Part shown: positions 1,414 through 29,155 of the stretch, one piece after another
Numbering within the stretch: the first letter of the stretch is position 1
How the letters are laid out: every line of letters begins with the position of its first letter
Source of the DNA: Escherichia phage vB_EcoM-E33
DNA: 64,000 nucleotides
Sequence record: OL780484.1
Reading direction: 5' to 3' (one strand)
Made by a program: the position numbers and the translations under genes
The notes under the pieces: generated by a model
What the model saw: only the letters and a program-made list of their open reading frames with translations
Told to the model about the DNA's origin: nothing
Databases searched by the model: none

Positions 1414-1908
1414 ATGGATATTTTTGATATGTTACGTCAAGACGAAGGTCTTGATTTAAATCTTTATAAAGACACTGAAGGTTATTGGACTATTGGCATT
1501 GGCCAATTGATTACTAAGAACCCTTCTAAAGATGTTGCTCGTGCTGAACTTGATAAGCTTATGGGTCGAGTTTGTAATGGTCGTATTACTATGGCTGAAG
1601 CTGAACAACTCTTTAACCGATCGGTTGAAAATGCTCGTAGAGCTATTCTGCGTAATCCTAAATTGAAACCTGTTTATGATGTACTGGACGAAGTTCGTCG
1701 TTGTGCTTTAATTAACATGGTCTTCCAAATGGGTGAAGCAGGCGTAGCAGGGTTCACTAACTCTTTACGTATGCTCCAACAGAAACGTTGGAACGATGCG
1801 GCAGTTAACCTGGCTCAATCCCGTTGGTATAAACAAACTCCTAATCGTGCTAAGCGCGTGATTTCAACATTTAAAACAGGTACTTGGAAAGCATATGAAA
1901 ACTTATAA
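1414..1908 (+). CDS. e: endolysin (T4 lysozyme)
   Basis: 164 aa; near-identical to remembered T4 lysozyme over its length (MxIFxMLRxDEGL...YKDTEGYxTIGIG...RTGTWxAYxNL). Confidence 0.95.
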
Positions 1909-3434: not shown

Positions 3435-3584
3435 TTAGCATTTTTAAATGGGAGCAACCTGGACCTCACAATTCTGTGAGGGACTCCCGCCAACCTGTAA
3501 TAAGGTCGAGCCCAAGTGCGGTAATGGGTAAATGCAGAAAGGGACGAATTAATGTGCCAAGGAACGGCCCTCAAAGGAAATACT
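3435..3584 (+). other. structured non-coding spacer (nested hairpins GGGAG..CCTCAC..GTGAGG..CTCCC)
   Basis: About 150 nt without a convincing ORF; nested inverted repeats; no cloverleaf recognised. Confidence 0.3.
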
Positions 3585-4112
3585 ATGAAATTTTTAACTC
3601 CCATTTATCTAACCTTAATGCACGCCTTCGCTGAACGCGCCATTGAACGTTTAGACTCAGACCAATATACCTGGTATGAACCTGCTTCAAGAATGCAAGA
3701 GTTTGGTACTCTTCGACTTGATGGCGGACGCCAAACAGGTAAAACAAGTGCCCTTGCTCAGTTCGCCGCTGATTGGGTTTCCAAGGGTAATGATGTGATT
3801 GTTATGTCGAGTTCTTCGCATCGCTCGCGAGAAATTTGTAATGTAATAAAACAGGTTTCTAAGGCACACCCACATCTCCAAGTCGAAGGTCCTGGTTTTG
3901 TTGTCTATGATACTGTGCGCAGTTTCCTTGATGAAGACAATTTCCATAAGTATCGTGGACTATCTGTTACTCGATTATTGATTATTATCGAAGAGCCAAT
4001 GCGCCTTCCAGCGATGGATAAGTTCTATGAAGCTTACCAGGTAATGATTAATAAATTTATGTGCCAAGGCGACAAGCCTTTGCCTCTGTTCTTTGTGATA
4101 GGAATGCAATGA
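3585..4112 (+). CDS. hypothetical protein with P-loop-like motif (GGRQTGKTSA)
   Basis: ORF 3552-4112; start placed at ATG 3585 after AAGGAAA SD. Confidence 0.45.
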   Translation: MKFLTPIYLTLMHAFAERAIERLDSDQYTWYEPASRMQEFGTLRLDGGRQTGKTSALAQFAADWVSKGNDVIVMSSSSHRSREICNVIKQVSKAHPHLQVEGPGFVVYDTVRSFLDEDNFHKYRGLSVTRLLIIIEEPMRLPAMDKFYEAYQVMINKFMCQGDKPLPLFFVIGMQ

Positions 4113-5104: not shown

Positions 5105-5154
5105 GTTTACATCTCCTGTAGACGTGGTACTATAGACCTATCAACTACAGGAGA
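5105..5154 (+). promoter_or_regulatory. early promoter (GTTTAC 5105-5110, TG-n-TACTAT 5128-5133) with inverted repeat TCTCCTGTAG/CTACAGGAGA covering the regB SD
   Basis: Same architecture and arms as 2294-2343. Confidence 0.6.
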
Positions 5155-5161
5155 TTACAAA

Positions 5162-5620
5162 ATGTCAGAAATTAATTCAGAAGTATTCATCCGCCGCAAT
5201 AAATTACGTCGTCAGTTCGAAACCGAATTCCGTGAACTGAATACGTCCATCAAAAAAGCCGCCATCAAGAGCGGAGTCCCAGCCTTCTTTATTAAGTACT
5301 CTAATCACTTGTTGGACCGTGCTATCCAACGTGAAATCGACGAAAAATACGTTTTTGCTTTATTCAAGCAACTCCATAACCATGTTAAAGAAATTCATGA
5401 ATTTTTAATCCAGGAACCTCTACCTGATGTAGAATCCGAAATTGTCCCTGGTAAAGTGTATCGTCCATTGCGTCTCGAAATTACCGATAAAACCTTATGG
5501 CTAGGTATGACAGTAGACCGTAAACATCCTGATAAAGGATATTCCCTTAAATGTCGTATGGCATTTGTTAACTCTAAACGTTTAGAAGGTAAAACCAGCA
5601 CGAAAGTAATCTATCTTTAA
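5162..5620 (+). CDS. regB: RegB site-specific endoribonuclease
   Basis: 152 aa; EVFIRRNKLRR...HLLDRAIQREIDE...RLEITD matches remembered T4 RegB; T4-like position. Confidence 0.75.
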   Translation: MSEINSEVFIRRNKLRRQFETEFRELNTSIKKAAIKSGVPAFFIKYSNHLLDRAIQREIDEKYVFALFKQLHNHVKEIHEFLIQEPLPDVESEIVPGKVYRPLRLEITDKTLWLGMTVDRKHPDKGYSLKCRMAFVNSKRLEGKTSTKVIYL

Positions 5621-5632
5621 TAATGAGGTCTC

Positions 5633-6172
5633 ATGAAAAAAGTATTAGCCACTTTACTATTGACAGTTAGTATGTCTGCCCATAGCGTAGAGCCTACTTT
5701 CAGTAATGAACAACTCGATAATTTACATTATGCGTATGCTTTCGGTGAACAATACCAAAAGTCGGGAAAGTTCAAAGAAAACCCTAATCAAAAAGGATTA
5801 GGATATATTATGGCCGGATTACTATGGCAGGAATCATCTGCCGGAATTAATCAGGGTTTAAATAAAGATAAGCACCATGCTTATGGCATGTTCCAAAATT
5901 ACTTGCCTACGTTAAGAAGTCGTGTTCAACAGGTAGGTTGGAAGATGTCTGACAAAGAAATAATTCGTATGGTCCAAAAACGACAGAACAGTGCCTCTTG
6001 GGCCTACATTGAACTGTCTTATTGGATTGATGTTCACAAAGGTGACCTGAGAAAAGCGATTGCTTCTTATAATGCGGGCTGGAACGCCAAAGCAGGCAGT
6101 AAATATGCTTCTGAAGTTCTAGAAAAGGCCAATTACCTAAAATCTAAAAAGATGTTTGAGGCGGTGTATTAA
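5633..6172 (+). CDS. secreted lytic-transglycosylase-like protein (SLT domain)
   Basis: Signal peptide; SLT-like motifs WQESSAG, AYGMFQ, ASYNAGW. Confidence 0.5.
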   Translation: MKKVLATLLLTVSMSAHSVEPTFSNEQLDNLHYAYAFGEQYQKSGKFKENPNQKGLGYIMAGLLWQESSAGINQGLNKDKHHAYGMFQNYLPTLRSRVQQVGWKMSDKEIIRMVQKRQNSASWAYIELSYWIDVHKGDLRKAIASYNAGWNAKAGSKYASEVLEKANYLKSKKMFEAVY

Positions 6173-6529
6173 ATGATTAAGCAGATGACTATAGCGCTTA
6201 TGTTGATTGCTCCGGGAGTATTAGCGTCACAAGTTGGTGATAGTAATAATTCAATTGTCGAGTATGCTACCCGTACAGCAAAAGATTATTGTCATCCGAG
6301 TAATACTGAATGCATTATCGAATTCAGTTCAAAAATCACAGCTGCTTTTAAAGATGGGCAGAACGACGTAGAGCATCGTCGAATGAAAGAGAAAACTCTT
6401 TCTAAAAGATACGAGCAACGTCTAAACGTTACTGAATGTATTCCATCTGATAAAAAGTACAAAGAAATGTGCGCGTCTATGGTAGACAGACTCGTTGACT
6501 CTTACAACCGAGGATTAAACTCTAAATGA
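6173..6529 (+). CDS. secreted hypothetical protein
   Basis: N-terminal signal peptide MIKQMTIALMLIAPGVLASQ; 118 aa. Confidence 0.45.
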   Translation: MIKQMTIALMLIAPGVLASQVGDSNNSIVEYATRTAKDYCHPSNTECIIEFSSKITAAFKDGQNDVEHRRMKEKTLSKRYEQRLNVTECIPSDKKYKEMCASMVDRLVDSYNRGLNSK

Positions 6530-6993
6530 TTATTGATTATATTAAGGGCGATATTGTCGCCCTATTTCTTCAAGGTAATAATGTTGCACACGGGTGCAAC
6601 TGTTTCCACACAATGGGTTCAGGTGTAGCTGGACAATTAGCTAAGGCTTATCCGCCTATTCTCGCTATCGATAAAACTACTTATTTAGGTAATTTGGCAA
6701 AACTTGGCACGTTTACTCAAGCCACAGGTAATAATGGCCAAATTTGCTATAATTTATATACCCAATACGAACCAGGCCCTAATCTTGATTATGGTGCTTT
6801 AGTAAACTGTATGATAGAATTAAATCAACAAGCAAAAGGTCTTTTGTTTAAACCAAGAATTTATATCCCTCGCATTGGTTGTGGTATTGCTGGTGGTGAT
6901 TGGGACAAGGTTTATCAATTGATTAATTTGTTTACTCCTGATATTAATTTAGTGGTGGTAGATTATGAAAGCCCATTACCCGCATCCGTTTGA
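6526..6993 (+). CDS. macro-domain protein (putative ADP-ribose binding/processing)
   Basis: GDIV...NVAHGCNC...MGSGVAGQL and PRIGCGIAGG resemble macro-domain signature motifs. Confidence 0.5.
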   Translation: MIIDYIKGDIVALFLQGNNVAHGCNCFHTMGSGVAGQLAKAYPPILAIDKTTYLGNLAKLGTFTQATGNNGQICYNLYTQYEPGPNLDYGALVNCMIELNQQAKGLLFKPRIYIPRIGCGIAGGDWDKVYQLINLFTPDINLVVVDYESPLPASV

Positions 6994-8307: not shown

Positions 8308-8601
8308 ATGGATATTTTCCGTACAGCGGCTTGTATCCTTATGGCGGGATGTTTAAGCCCTACAGTTTCACTAGCAAATGGTGCCAATGATAAATTGATG
8401 GATGCATTTGCTAGTAGTGCGATGCCTGTTTATGCGCAAATGAGTAGACCCAGCGTAAAGGCCTCCGAAGACTATTGGGCCTATGTTACGGCTTCCTGGA
8501 AGATTTCAAGTTGTCGGACTATAGAAGCGTGCTCAATTGAAGGTCGGGCCATCGGAGAGCGTTATGTAAAACTAATGAAGGTGGAAGATGAAGTTCAATG
8601 A
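8308..8601 (+). CDS. secreted/lipoprotein-like 97-aa protein, possibly rI-like by position and size
   Basis: Signal peptide with LMAGC lipobox; T4 rI lies beside tk and is 97 aa; sequence itself not recognised. Confidence 0.35.
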   Translation: MDIFRTAACILMAGCLSPTVSLANGANDKLMDAFASSAMPVYAQMSRPSVKASEDYWAYVTASWKISSCRTIEACSIEGRAIGERYVKLMKVEDEVQ

Positions 8602-18773: not shown

Positions 18774-18996
18774 AGAATATGTAGAGGCTGCCGATAAGGC
18801 AGTCCGCGAACTTACTTTAGCTTATTATAAAGAGCATGGTAAATTTCCGGACAGTTATTCAGTATTGAAATCTGCTTTAACTCGCTCGTATAATAATATA
18901 CTATCTGATGTGTATAATTTAAAATATGAGCACATGGAAAAATATGGAACAGAACTTGACCGTTCTGAAGCATTCAAACAAATATTAGGAATTTAA
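18760..18996 (+). CDS. hypothetical protein
   Basis: 78 aa from ATG 18760 ([13 protein letters not shown]). Confidence 0.4.
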
Positions 18997-29131: not shown

Positions 29132-29155
29132 TGCTTTAAAATATTGATTTATAAT
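29132..29155 (+). promoter_or_regulatory. MotA-type middle promoter (TGCTTTA-11-TATAAT)
   Basis: Mot box 29132-29138, -10 29150-29155. Confidence 0.5.

What the first reader, a model, noticed from the sequence alone, without database searches (positions are those of the whole stretch)
5633..6529. Secreted SLT-like lytic transglycosylase and a second secreted protein in the early region
ORF 5633-6172 has a signal peptide and SLT-domain-like motifs (ES..., GMFQ, AYNAGW), followed by another signal-peptide protein (6173-6529). A periplasmic muralytic enzyme expressed early, separate from the endolysin, could act in superinfection exclusion or cell-wall remodelling.
Basis: partly seen in the sequence, partly recalled or inferred. 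Interest (0 to 1): 0.35.

Follow-up and report, generated by a model that had tools for sequence, protein, structure and literature searches.

The report
T4 vs.1/vs: exported transglycosylase gene pair
These two genes are this T4-like phage's copies of the long-catalogued T4 genes vs.1 (an exported, SLT-type cell-wall-cutting enzyme, already noted in the literature) and vs (the "valyl-tRNA synthetase modifier"), so the finding is largely ordinary, except that vs looks like an exported partner of vs.1, which does not fit its textbook cytoplasmic job.

Summary
Both ORFs are real and lie at the stated coordinates. The window is a Dhakavirus (JS98/Bp7/QL01-like T-even phage). ORF 5633-6172 is vs.1 and ORF 6173-6529 is vs, inside the conserved early array regB-vs.1-vs-tk.4-tk.

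Vs.1 is a single-domain GH23/SLT-type enzyme. The family keeps the catalytic Glu (E67). Its AlphaFold model matches only g-type lysozymes and lytic transglycosylases. A family profile hits the type-III-secretion "specialised" transglycosylase EtgA (E 6e-7). All 37 aligned relatives carry a Sec-type signal peptide.

The SLT resemblance of vs.1 was published in 2003/2006 and appears in some GenBank records. That part is already known, though no biochemical test of it turned up.

The second "secreted protein" is the orthologue of T4 Vs. It has a conserved signal peptide (a lipobox in some relatives), four invariant cysteines and a four-helix model. A family member lies next to or near vs.1 in 64 of 70 T4-like loci, usually translationally coupled. 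Published T4 transposon data show vs and vs.1 mutants sharing a fitness defect.

This predicts a periplasmic Vs.1/Vs module, which conflicts with the classical cytoplasmic role of Vs. Superinfection exclusion has no support.

The parts
5106..5133 (+). sigma-70/T4-early-type promoter-like site (TTTACA-16-TACTAT with upstream TG) ahead of regB; the likely start of the regB-vs.1-vs-tk.4 transcript
   Evidence: Consensus scan and sequence. Inferred only. No MotA-box match lies directly upstream of vs.1.
5162..5620 (+). regB (site-specific endoribonuclease), the upstream neighbour; 12 nt separate its stop from the vs.1 start
   Evidence: Pfam REGB_T4 6e-69; phrog_1323.
5633..6172 (+). vs.1: 179-aa precursor of an exported single-domain GH23/SLT-type lytic transglycosylase (predicted mature form 161 aa, 18.6 kDa, pI 9.4)
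   Evidence: 67% identical to T4 Vs.1. phrog_600. SLT hits across the family. AF2 pLDDT 87.6. Foldseek top hits are all GH23. Family profile against EtgA gives E 5.9e-7. Masses.
5633..5686 (+). Vs.1 signal peptide (aa 1-18, MKKVLATLLLTVSMSAHS | VEP); too short a hydrophobic core (13 residues) for a SAR or TM anchor
   Evidence: Rule-based scan, 37/37 relatives. pLDDT is low over residues 1-20.
5831..5836 (+). Glu67-Ser68: the 'E-S' motif, predicted catalytic acid/base
   Evidence: E67 is invariant in 37 close and 52 diverse relatives. It aligns with the QES Glu of Slt70 and the NES Glu of EtgA.
5885..5896 (+). G85-M-F-Q88, equivalent to the SLT 'G-L-M-Q' motif
   Evidence: G85, Q88 and N89 are invariant in A1. 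Aligned with GLMQ of Slt70.
6065..6079 (+). S145-Y-N-A-G149, equivalent to the SLT 'A-Y-N-x-G' motif; Y158 follows
   Evidence: Y146, G149 and Y158 are invariant in 52 diverse relatives.
6173..6529 (+). vs: 118-aa precursor, orthologue of T4 Vs ('valyl-tRNA synthetase modifier'). Predicted exported four-helix protein (mature form 100 aa, 11.5 kDa) with four invariant Cys at codons 6290-6292, 6311-6313, 6437-6439 and 6470-6472
   Evidence: 45% identical to T4 Vs. phrog_1256. Alignments A2 and A4. AF2 pLDDT 79 with four helices. Signal peptide in 25/26 relatives. Lipobox variants in relatives.
6173..6226 (+). Vs signal peptide (aa 1-18, MIKQMTIALMLIAPGVLA | SQV)
   Evidence: pLDDT <50 for residues 1-22.
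6526..6993 (+). tk.4 (macro-domain protein), the downstream neighbour; overlaps vs by 4 nt. Context only.
   Evidence: Pfam Macro 4.9e-8; phrog_335.
1414..1908 (+). gene e, the T4-type endolysin. Context only: it shows that Vs.1 is a second muralytic enzyme, separate from the endolysin.
   Evidence: 74% identical to T4 lysozyme over 164 aa.

Best explanation
The two ORFs are the vs.1 and vs genes of a Dhakavirus (T-even phage). They are transcribed early together with regB and are translationally coupled.

Vs.1 is made as a 20.5-kDa precursor and exported by Sec. Its signal peptide is most likely cut after Ser18. The 18.6-kDa basic mature protein is a single-domain GH23 (SLT family 1) enzyme of the small, EtgA-like 'specialised' type. 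Glu67 would act as the sole acid/base and cleave MurNAc-beta1,4-GlcNAc bonds, giving 1,6-anhydro-MurNAc ends. This would be limited, local remodelling of the infected cell's sacculus, not lysis.

Vs is likewise exported. It folds into a four-helix bundle probably stapled by two disulfides. I infer that it works with Vs.1 in the periplasm as a modulator or partner.

The module is accessory: non-essential in T4, but it contributes to fitness in liquid competition, in minimal medium and on a clinical host.

Shown here: gene identity, fold class, motif conservation, signal-peptide features and synteny.
Inferred: export, catalytic chemistry, the Vs.1-Vs partnership and the physiological purpose.
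For: - Identity and synteny.
- SLT/GH23 class: Pfam SLT in 33/37 close and 19/52 diverse relatives. The AF2 model (pLDDT 87.6) has only GH23 proteins among its confident Foldseek hits: g-type lysozyme, MltD, Slt, LtgA and GH23 chitinase, with probabilities 0.96-1.0. The family profile hits EtgA at E 5.9e-7.
- Catalytic residues: E67, Y146, G149 and Y158 are invariant across 52 sequences at 23-48% identity. No second conserved acidic residue lies between E67 and G85 in alignment A1, which fits a transglycosylase rather than a hydrolase.
- Signal peptides: 37/37 and 25/26 relatives.
- Vs features: four invariant Cys, four helices, and lipobox (ALSGC) versions in five loci.
- Pairing: a Vs-family gene is found in 64/70 vs.1 loci. 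In 59/70 the ORF starting within a few bases of the vs.1 stop has a signal-peptide-like N-terminus.
- Expression: T4 vs.1 and vs are both 'early RNA, middle protein'.
- T4 HIDEN-SEQ data: both genes are non-essential. After liquid LB competition, mean insertion counts were vs 26.6 and vs.1 22.6, against 178-767 for neighbours regB, vs.3, tk.4 and tk.3. In M9, vs fell by log2FC -2.19 (padj 0) and vs.1 by -0.87 (p 0.0055). On clinical strain CFE299, vs.1 fell by -1.20 (padj 0.015) and vs by -1.04.
Against: - No enzymatic, localisation or interaction data were found for Vs.1 from any phage in the library searched.
- The window protein alone is below Pfam's SLT threshold. Foldseek E-values are modest (0.02) with TM 0.42-0.51.
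- Signal peptides were judged by simple rules, not SignalP.
- Classical biochemistry says Vs binds cytoplasmic valyl-tRNA synthetase (Muller & Marchin 1975/1977, as cited in PMC8076793). That is hard to square with export.
- The shared fitness phenotype of vs.1 and vs insertions could be polarity of vs.1 insertions on the coupled vs gene.
- Vs.1 homologues occur without any Vs in Ackermannviridae, Felix-O1-like and some Aeromonas phages, so Vs.1 does not need Vs.
Confidence: 0.72

Rival explanations
1. Vs is what the annotation says: a cytoplasmic protein that binds and modifies host valyl-tRNA synthetase. Its hydrophobic N-terminus is not an export signal, or is only an inefficient one, and its adjacency to vs.1 has no functional meaning. 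Vs.1 acts alone.
For: - Classical literature cited in PMC8076793.
- A vs deletion impairs T4 plaques specifically in minimal medium, where amino-acid supply and charging matter. The vs M9 effect (-2.19) is much larger than that of vs.1 (-0.87).
- Vs.1 exists without Vs in several phage families.
Against: - A signal-peptide layout is present in 25/26 close Vs relatives, with variable sequence but conserved form.
- Five relatives carry a lipoprotein lipobox instead.
- Four Cys are invariant across the family down to 17-29% identity, as expected for periplasmic disulfides.
- Coupling to a signal-peptide enzyme gene is tight in most T4-like loci.
- Full-length His-tagged T4 Vs was insoluble in the cytoplasm.
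- Predicted mature T4 Vs is 11.0 kDa against 13.1 kDa for the precursor. From memory, unverified here, the purified factor was about 10 kDa, which fits the processed form.
Confidence: 0.25
2. Vs.1 is an auxiliary, secreted endolysin. It accumulates in the periplasm and contributes to final lysis alongside gene e, like the Sec-secreted Tgl of staphylococcal kayviruses or SAR endolysins.
For: - Precedent: Kayvirus Tgl is a secreted, LT-motif enzyme with an early-type promoter that acts with the main endolysin (PMC7150955).
- Felix-O1-like homologues are annotated 'putative lysin' and lie about 1.2 kb upstream of the spanin genes.
Against: - Expression is early and shared with regB, far from the holin gene.
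- The hydrophobic core of 13 residues is too short for a SAR anchor.
- T4 vs.1 is non-essential.
- From established T4 genetics (memory), e-minus mutants fail to lyse, so Vs.1 cannot replace e.
Confidence: 0.15
3. Vs.1 blocks superinfecting phages or competitors at the cell wall, or else is a non-catalytic peptidoglycan-binding protein.
For: Its periplasmic location and early timing would suit exclusion. No direct evidence was found.
Against: - No hit to any PADLOC defence model.
- From memory, T4 exclusion is accounted for by Imm and Spackle.
- Cutting the wall would help, not hinder, an incoming phage.
- The catalytic Glu and all SLT motifs are invariant, which argues against a dead enzyme.
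Confidence: 0.07

Closest known systems
T4 genes vs.1 (NP_049725) and vs (NP_049724)
   Same: Orthologues. Vs.1 is 67% and Vs 45% identical to the T4 proteins. The gene order regB-vs.1-vs-tk.4-tk is the same, as are the signal-peptide and Cys features.
   Different: Only sequence divergence. In the window the vs.1 stop abuts the vs start, while in T4 they overlap by 8 nt. T4 Vs.1 has no assigned function; its SLT resemblance was noted in 2003/2006.
EtgA/IagB/IpgF/VirB1/P19-type 'specialised' lytic transglycosylases of secretion and conjugation systems (EtgA structures 4xp8, 8urn)
   Same: Small (about 150-200 aa), single SLT domain, Sec signal peptide and periplasmic. EtgA is the best sequence match in the PDB (E 5.9e-7), with its Glu aligned to E67.
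   Different: Those enzymes are encoded in, and recruited by, a trans-envelope machine. Vs.1 sits in a phage early nucleotide/RNA-metabolism region with no such machine nearby. The extra Asp reported for EtgA (memory) has no conserved counterpart in Vs.1.
Slt70 / MltD / goose-type lysozyme (GH23 catalytic domain, Pfam PF01464)
   Same: Predicted fold and the E-S, G-x-x-Q and Y-N-x-G motifs.
   Different: Vs.1 has no accessory domains (no superhelical U/L domains, no LysM, no lipid anchor). The window sequence scores below the Pfam gathering threshold.
Kayvirus Tgl (PMC7150955)
   Same: A phage-encoded, Sec-secreted enzyme with LT motifs, an early-type promoter, and separate from the main endolysin.
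   Different: Its host is Gram-positive and it is related to IsaA/SceD. It has been shown experimentally to be lytic; Vs.1 has not been tested.
Periplasmic lysozyme inhibitors and phage periplasmic proteins (Ivy/PliG/MliC, LprI/DUF1311, T4 Spackle), considered as models for Vs
   Same: Small exported proteins that act on a muralytic enzyme. LprI-type proteins are also helical with four Cys (memory).
   Different: No sequence or fold similarity of Vs to any of them was detected. The analogy is only conceptual.

Membership tests
GH23 / SLT family-1 lytic transglycosylase (Pfam PF01464) | Significant match to the SLT profile | tested here: inconclusive
   The window protein scores 16.2 bits against a gathering score of 21.3. 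However, 33/37 close relatives match at E<=0.01 with best 1.3e-7, 19/52 diverse relatives match at E<=0.001 with best 5e-9, and many relatives have precomputed PF01464 hits.
GH23 / SLT family-1 lytic transglycosylase (Pfam PF01464) | Catalytic Glu in an E-S motif, plus the G-L-M-Q and A-Y-N-x-G motifs | tested here: met
   E67-S68, G85-M-F-Q88 and S145-Y-N-A-G149. E67, Y146 and G149 are invariant in 52 diverse members. The motifs align with Slt70 and EtgA.
GH23 / SLT family-1 lytic transglycosylase (Pfam PF01464) | Lysozyme-like alpha-helical fold | tested here: met
GH23 / SLT family-1 lytic transglycosylase (Pfam PF01464) | Non-hydrolytic cleavage that yields 1,6-anhydro-MurNAc | not testable with these tools
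   Needs muropeptide analysis. The absence of a second conserved acidic residue in A1 is only suggestive.
Specialised (machine-associated) lytic transglycosylases (EtgA-like) | Small single-domain SLT protein with a Sec signal peptide | tested here: met
   179 aa, with a signal peptide. The family is mostly 160-200 aa. EtgA is the best PDB sequence hit.
Specialised (machine-associated) lytic transglycosylases (EtgA-like) | Encoded within, and acting for, a trans-envelope secretion, pilus or flagellar apparatus | tested here: not met
   The neighbours are regB, vs, tk.4 (macro domain) and tk. No envelope machine genes are present.
T4 Vs family ('valyl-tRNA synthetase modifier', phrog_1256 / PF26829) | Sequence orthology and synteny with T4 vs | tested here: met
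   phrog_1256 at 2.7e-34. 45% identity to T4 Vs, E 4e-30. Same position between vs.1 and tk.4. PF26829 is precomputed for all homologues.
T4 Vs family ('valyl-tRNA synthetase modifier', phrog_1256 / PF26829) | Binds and modifies cytoplasmic valyl-tRNA synthetase (implies a cytoplasmic location) | not testable with these tools
   The sequence features point the other way: signal peptide, lipobox variants and four invariant Cys. Binding itself cannot be tested here.
Phage endolysin (holin-dependent or SAR) | A late lysis-cassette gene, or a SAR anchor of about 18-20 weakly hydrophobic residues | tested here: not met
   The gene lies in an early-region context. The hydrophobic core is 13 residues. 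The true endolysin e is at 1414-1908.

The most novel reading that the evidence does not exclude
The Vs family, annotated for about 50 years as a cytoplasmic 'valyl-tRNA synthetase modifier', is really an exported, disulfide-bonded periplasmic (in some phages lipid-anchored) partner or regulator of the exported transglycosylase Vs.1. The two would form a conserved two-gene periplasmic module of T4-like phages. The classical Vs-ValRS association would then be secondary: a moonlighting activity, a small unexported fraction, or formed after cell breakage.
Probability: 0.3. Interest if true: 0.65.

Novelty: already known. Interest (0 to 1): 0.3.

Why it matters
As stated, the finding re-discovers an annotated gene pair. 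Vs.1's SLT resemblance is in the T4 literature and in some database records, so it adds little.

What remains open is why so many large virulent myoviruses (2075 records: Straboviridae, Ackermannviridae, Felix-O1-like) export a cell-wall-cutting enzyme early in infection, well before lysis. T4 transposon data now show it contributes to fitness, especially on a clinical host.

The better lead is Vs. Its export signals, invariant cysteines and tight coupling to vs.1 conflict with the cytoplasmic role it is named for. Settling this would either correct a very old annotation or reveal a dual-location protein. It needs only simple fractionation, N-terminal mass spectrometry and non-polar deletions in T4.

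Tried and rejected
- Single-sequence phmmer of Vs.1 and Vs against PDB sequences gave nothing useful.
- The close-family profile A1 against PDB gave only weak g-type lysozyme hits, E 0.2. The broader profile A3 was needed to reach EtgA.
- hhalign of A1 against the single Slt70 C-domain sequence was not significant (probability 0.4). It did place E67 on the Slt70 QES Glu and GMFQ on GLMQ.
- I tested whether Vs is a lysozyme-inhibitor-like protein (LprI/DUF1311, Spackle, PliG/Ivy). There was no Pfam hit in 22 diverse members and no PDB sequence hit. Foldseek against PDB gave no fold match, best E 2. BFVD returned only Vs homologues plus one phage 'lipoprotein'. The idea is rejected as homology and kept only as an analogy.
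- NCBIfam, PADLOC and Rfam found nothing for the region.
- No MotA-box middle promoter lies directly upstream of vs.1.
- The 2003 T4 genome review and the 1975 Muller & Marchin paper are not held in the library, so classical Vs facts rest on citations in other papers and on memory.
- The search for related loci failed with the very diverse alignment A3; A1 was used instead.

Full report
**What is at the coordinates**

The stop codon of the first abuts the ATG of the second. The second overlaps the next gene by 4 nt. Only 12 nt separate the upstream gene from the first ORF.

The 1.9-kb stretch around them is 99.5% identical to Escherichia phage QL01 and 95-99% identical to LQ5, PSD9, Bp7, JS10 and IME08. 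These are Dhakavirus members of the Tevenvirinae.

In the annotated relatives, and in T4 itself, the gene order is regB - vs.1 - vs - tk.4 - tk.3 - tk.2 - tk. The window proteins are 67% (Vs.1) and 45% (Vs) identical to the T4 proteins. PHROGs places them in phrog_600 (unknown function) and phrog_1256 ('valyl tRNA synthetase modifier'). The finding therefore concerns the T4 genes vs.1 and vs.

**Is Vs.1 an SLT-type enzyme?**

- The window protein alone gives a sub-threshold Pfam SLT hit: 16.2 bits against a gathering score of 21.3, E 0.0077.
- At family level the link is firm. 33 of 37 relatives at 42-90% identity match SLT at E<=0.01, best 1.3e-7. 19 of 52 much more diverse relatives at 23-48% identity match at E<=0.001, best 5e-9.
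- A profile of the diverse set hits EtgA, the type-III-secretion peptidoglycan lytic enzyme (PDB 8urn), at E 5.9e-7. Goose-type lysozyme follows at E 0.038.
- An AlphaFold2 model built on the family alignment is confident (mean pLDDT 87.6, pTM 0.81). Its Foldseek hits in the PDB with probability 0.96-1.0 are all GH23 proteins: cod and swan g-type lysozymes, MltD, Slt, LtgA and a GH23 chitinase. E-values are about 0.02-0.2 and TM 0.42-0.51, measured with the signal peptide included in the query.
- The classical family-1 motifs are present and conserved: W-Q-E67-S, G85-M-F-Q88, S-Y146-N-A-G149 and Y158. E67, Y146, G149 and Y158 are invariant across 52 diverse members.
- E67 aligns with the catalytic-motif Glu of Slt70 and of EtgA.
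- No second acidic residue is conserved between E67 and G85 in the close-family alignment. That fits a lytic transglycosylase better than a hydrolytic lysozyme. This is an inference, not a test.

**Is it exported?**

The N-terminus MKK-VLATLLLTVSMSA-HS|VEP has the charge, hydrophobic-core and small -3/-1 layout of a Sec signal peptide. The same layout, with different sequences, appears in 37/37 aligned relatives.

The hydrophobic core of 13 residues is too short for a membrane or SAR anchor. The predicted mature protein is 161 aa, 18.6 kDa, pI 9.4. SignalP was not available, so this rests on simple rules plus conservation.

**Is this new?**

No. Nolan et al. [quoted passage not shown] They found this in 6/6 T4-like genomes and say it corroborates earlier PSI-BLAST matches for T4 vs.1.

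UniRef and several GenBank records already name the protein 'transglycosylase SLT domain-containing protein'. No paper reporting an experimental test of activity or location turned up in the library.

**Distribution**

tblastn finds Vs.1 in 2075 phage records. These include not only Straboviridae but also Ackermannviridae (about 157 kb) and Felix-O1-like phages (about 87 kb). In the homologues I translated from those groups, the signal peptide and motifs are kept.

A profile search of 1.84 billion cluster representatives finds 494 members at E<=0.001. Nearly all are 160-200 aa, so this is a family of small single-domain proteins.

**The second ORF, vs**

It is the orthologue of T4 Vs, the 'valyl-tRNA synthetase modifier'. 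That protein is reported to bind host ValRS (Muller & Marchin 1975, 1977, as cited in PMC8076793). Yet the family looks extracytoplasmic:

- A signal-peptide layout is present in 25/26 close relatives and in T4 Vs itself (MTKILVLCIGLISFSASASA|DTS).
- Four cysteines are invariant in the close family. All four are kept in diverse relatives down to 17-29% identity, although MAFFT splits the third Cys between two columns. The spacing is regular, C-x5-10-C ... C-x8-10-C.
- The AlphaFold model (pLDDT 79) shows four helices, with the Cys pairs at the two helix-hairpin turns.
- In five related loci the signal peptide is replaced by a lipoprotein lipobox, ALSGC.

No Pfam, PDB-sequence or fold relative of known function was found. 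When others expressed full-length N-His T4 Vs in the cytoplasm, it went to inclusion bodies.

**Linkage of the two genes**

I examined 70 vs.1 loci from IMG/VR.

- In 59 of them, the ORF that starts within a few bases of the vs.1 stop (offsets of -8 to +7 in the listing) has a signal-peptide-like N-terminus. These ORFs are typically about 100-120 aa with four Cys in the mature part.
- An iterative HMM search starting from the window Vs converges on a family member in 64 of the 70 loci. That includes RB43-like phages, where the gene lies roughly 0.5-1.2 kb downstream of vs.1.
- A plain tblastn with the window Vs finds only 797 records, so the family is wider than its annotation suggests.

**Functional data for the T4 orthologues**

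- Both genes are listed as 'early RNA, middle protein' in the omics tables of Wolfram-Schauerte et al. 2022.
- In the HIDEN-SEQ transposon study (bioRxiv 10.1101/2025.11.20.689424) both are non-essential.
- After liquid LB competition, mean insertion counts are vs 26.6 and vs.1 22.6. The neighbours have far more: regB 178.6, tk.4 289.6, vs.3 652 and tk.3 767.
- In M9 against LB, vs drops by log2FC -2.19 (adjusted p 0). It is the strongest hit, and a clean deletion confirmed it. vs.1 drops by -0.87 (p 0.0055, adjusted 0.155).
- On the clinical strain CFE299, vs.1 is significantly depleted (-1.20, adjusted p 0.015). vs drops similarly (-1.04, not significant).
- The two genes therefore behave alike and unlike their neighbours. 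Polarity of vs.1 insertions on the coupled vs gene could contribute, and I cannot exclude it.

**Mechanism proposed**

An early-type promoter-like site (GTTTACA-16-TACTAT, 5106-5133) precedes regB. The tight spacing suggests one transcript and coupled translation of vs.1 and vs.

Vs.1 is exported, processed and acts as a small periplasmic lytic transglycosylase using Glu67. Vs is exported, oxidised and, I infer, modulates or partners Vs.1. The outcome would be limited remodelling of the sacculus during infection. This is dispensable in rich laboratory conditions but helpful in minimal medium and on some natural hosts.

It is not the lysis enzyme. The T4-type endolysin e is present at 1414-1908 (74% identical to T4 e), and vs.1 is early and non-essential. 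Nothing supports superinfection exclusion: there are no PADLOC hits, and a wall-cutting enzyme has no obvious way to block entry.

**Rivals**

1. The classical view: Vs is cytoplasmic and unrelated to Vs.1. It is supported by old biochemistry and by the stronger M9 phenotype of vs. It is contradicted by the export features.
2. Vs.1 as an auxiliary secreted endolysin, like Kayvirus Tgl (PMC7150955).
3. Exclusion, or a non-catalytic binding protein.

**Verdict**

The finding as given is ordinary. The one point of interest is the conflict between the name of Vs and its sequence features. The Vs.1/Vs pair appears to be a conserved periplasmic module. I put the probability of that reading at about 0.3, and it is directly testable in T4.

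Noticed in passing
L005:2471-3088 (Salmonella phage GEC_vB_GOT); also hit H34 and UniRef names for P0019 and P0056: Vs.1 homologues (SLT motifs, signal peptide) are mis-annotated as 'RegB site-specific RNA endonuclease' or 'endoribonuclease' in several GenBank and UniRef records, apparently by transfer from the neighbouring gene. Vs homologues are often mislabelled 'valyl-tRNA synthetase', i.e. the enzyme itself.
   Followed up: partly
L046, L062-L064 and L069-L087 etc., about 300-330 nt after the vs.1 stop (for example L004:3363-3755): Many T4-like phages carry a third signal-peptide protein directly after the Vs-like gene. It is 130-146 aa with 2 Cys in the mature part and an N-terminal 'AWEKLPGYPE' motif. 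It is absent from this window and from T4, where tk.4 follows vs directly. The periplasmic cluster may be larger in other lineages.
   Followed up: no
L062, L063, L064, L068, L082 (ORF starting at the vs.1 stop): In these loci the Vs-family protein has a lipoprotein lipobox (LSGC followed by K) instead of a plain signal peptide.
   Followed up: partly
window 5140-5164: The regB Shine-Dalgarno is CAGGAGA, which contains the GGAG that RegB cleaves. The vs.1 and vs sites are GAGG-type without GGAG. This fits regB autoregulation as known from T4 (memory) and may spare vs.1 and vs.
   Followed up: no
window 8308-8601: The 97-aa ORF in the rI position matches the PHROG 'lysis inhibition' family (7.7e-30) but has no BLASTP similarity to T4 RI. 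Its N-terminus ends in a lipobox-like LMAGC, unlike the SAR domain reported for T4 RI (memory).
   Followed up: partly
window, whole (23 sites, e.g. 6795-6820, 18873-18899, 29132-29155): MotA-box-type middle-promoter patterns (TGCTTnA, then 9-14 nt, then TAnnnT) are enriched: 23 found against 6.25 expected, and 0 of 100 shuffles reach 23. They lie mostly on the + strand, in line with the all-plus-strand early/middle gene array.
   Followed up: no
window 3552-4112: A 186-aa ORF (phrog_1488, unknown function; it occupies the position of vs.8 in Bp7) has a P-loop-like GRQTGKTS motif and weak hits to AAA and terminase-N NTPase families.
   Followed up: no
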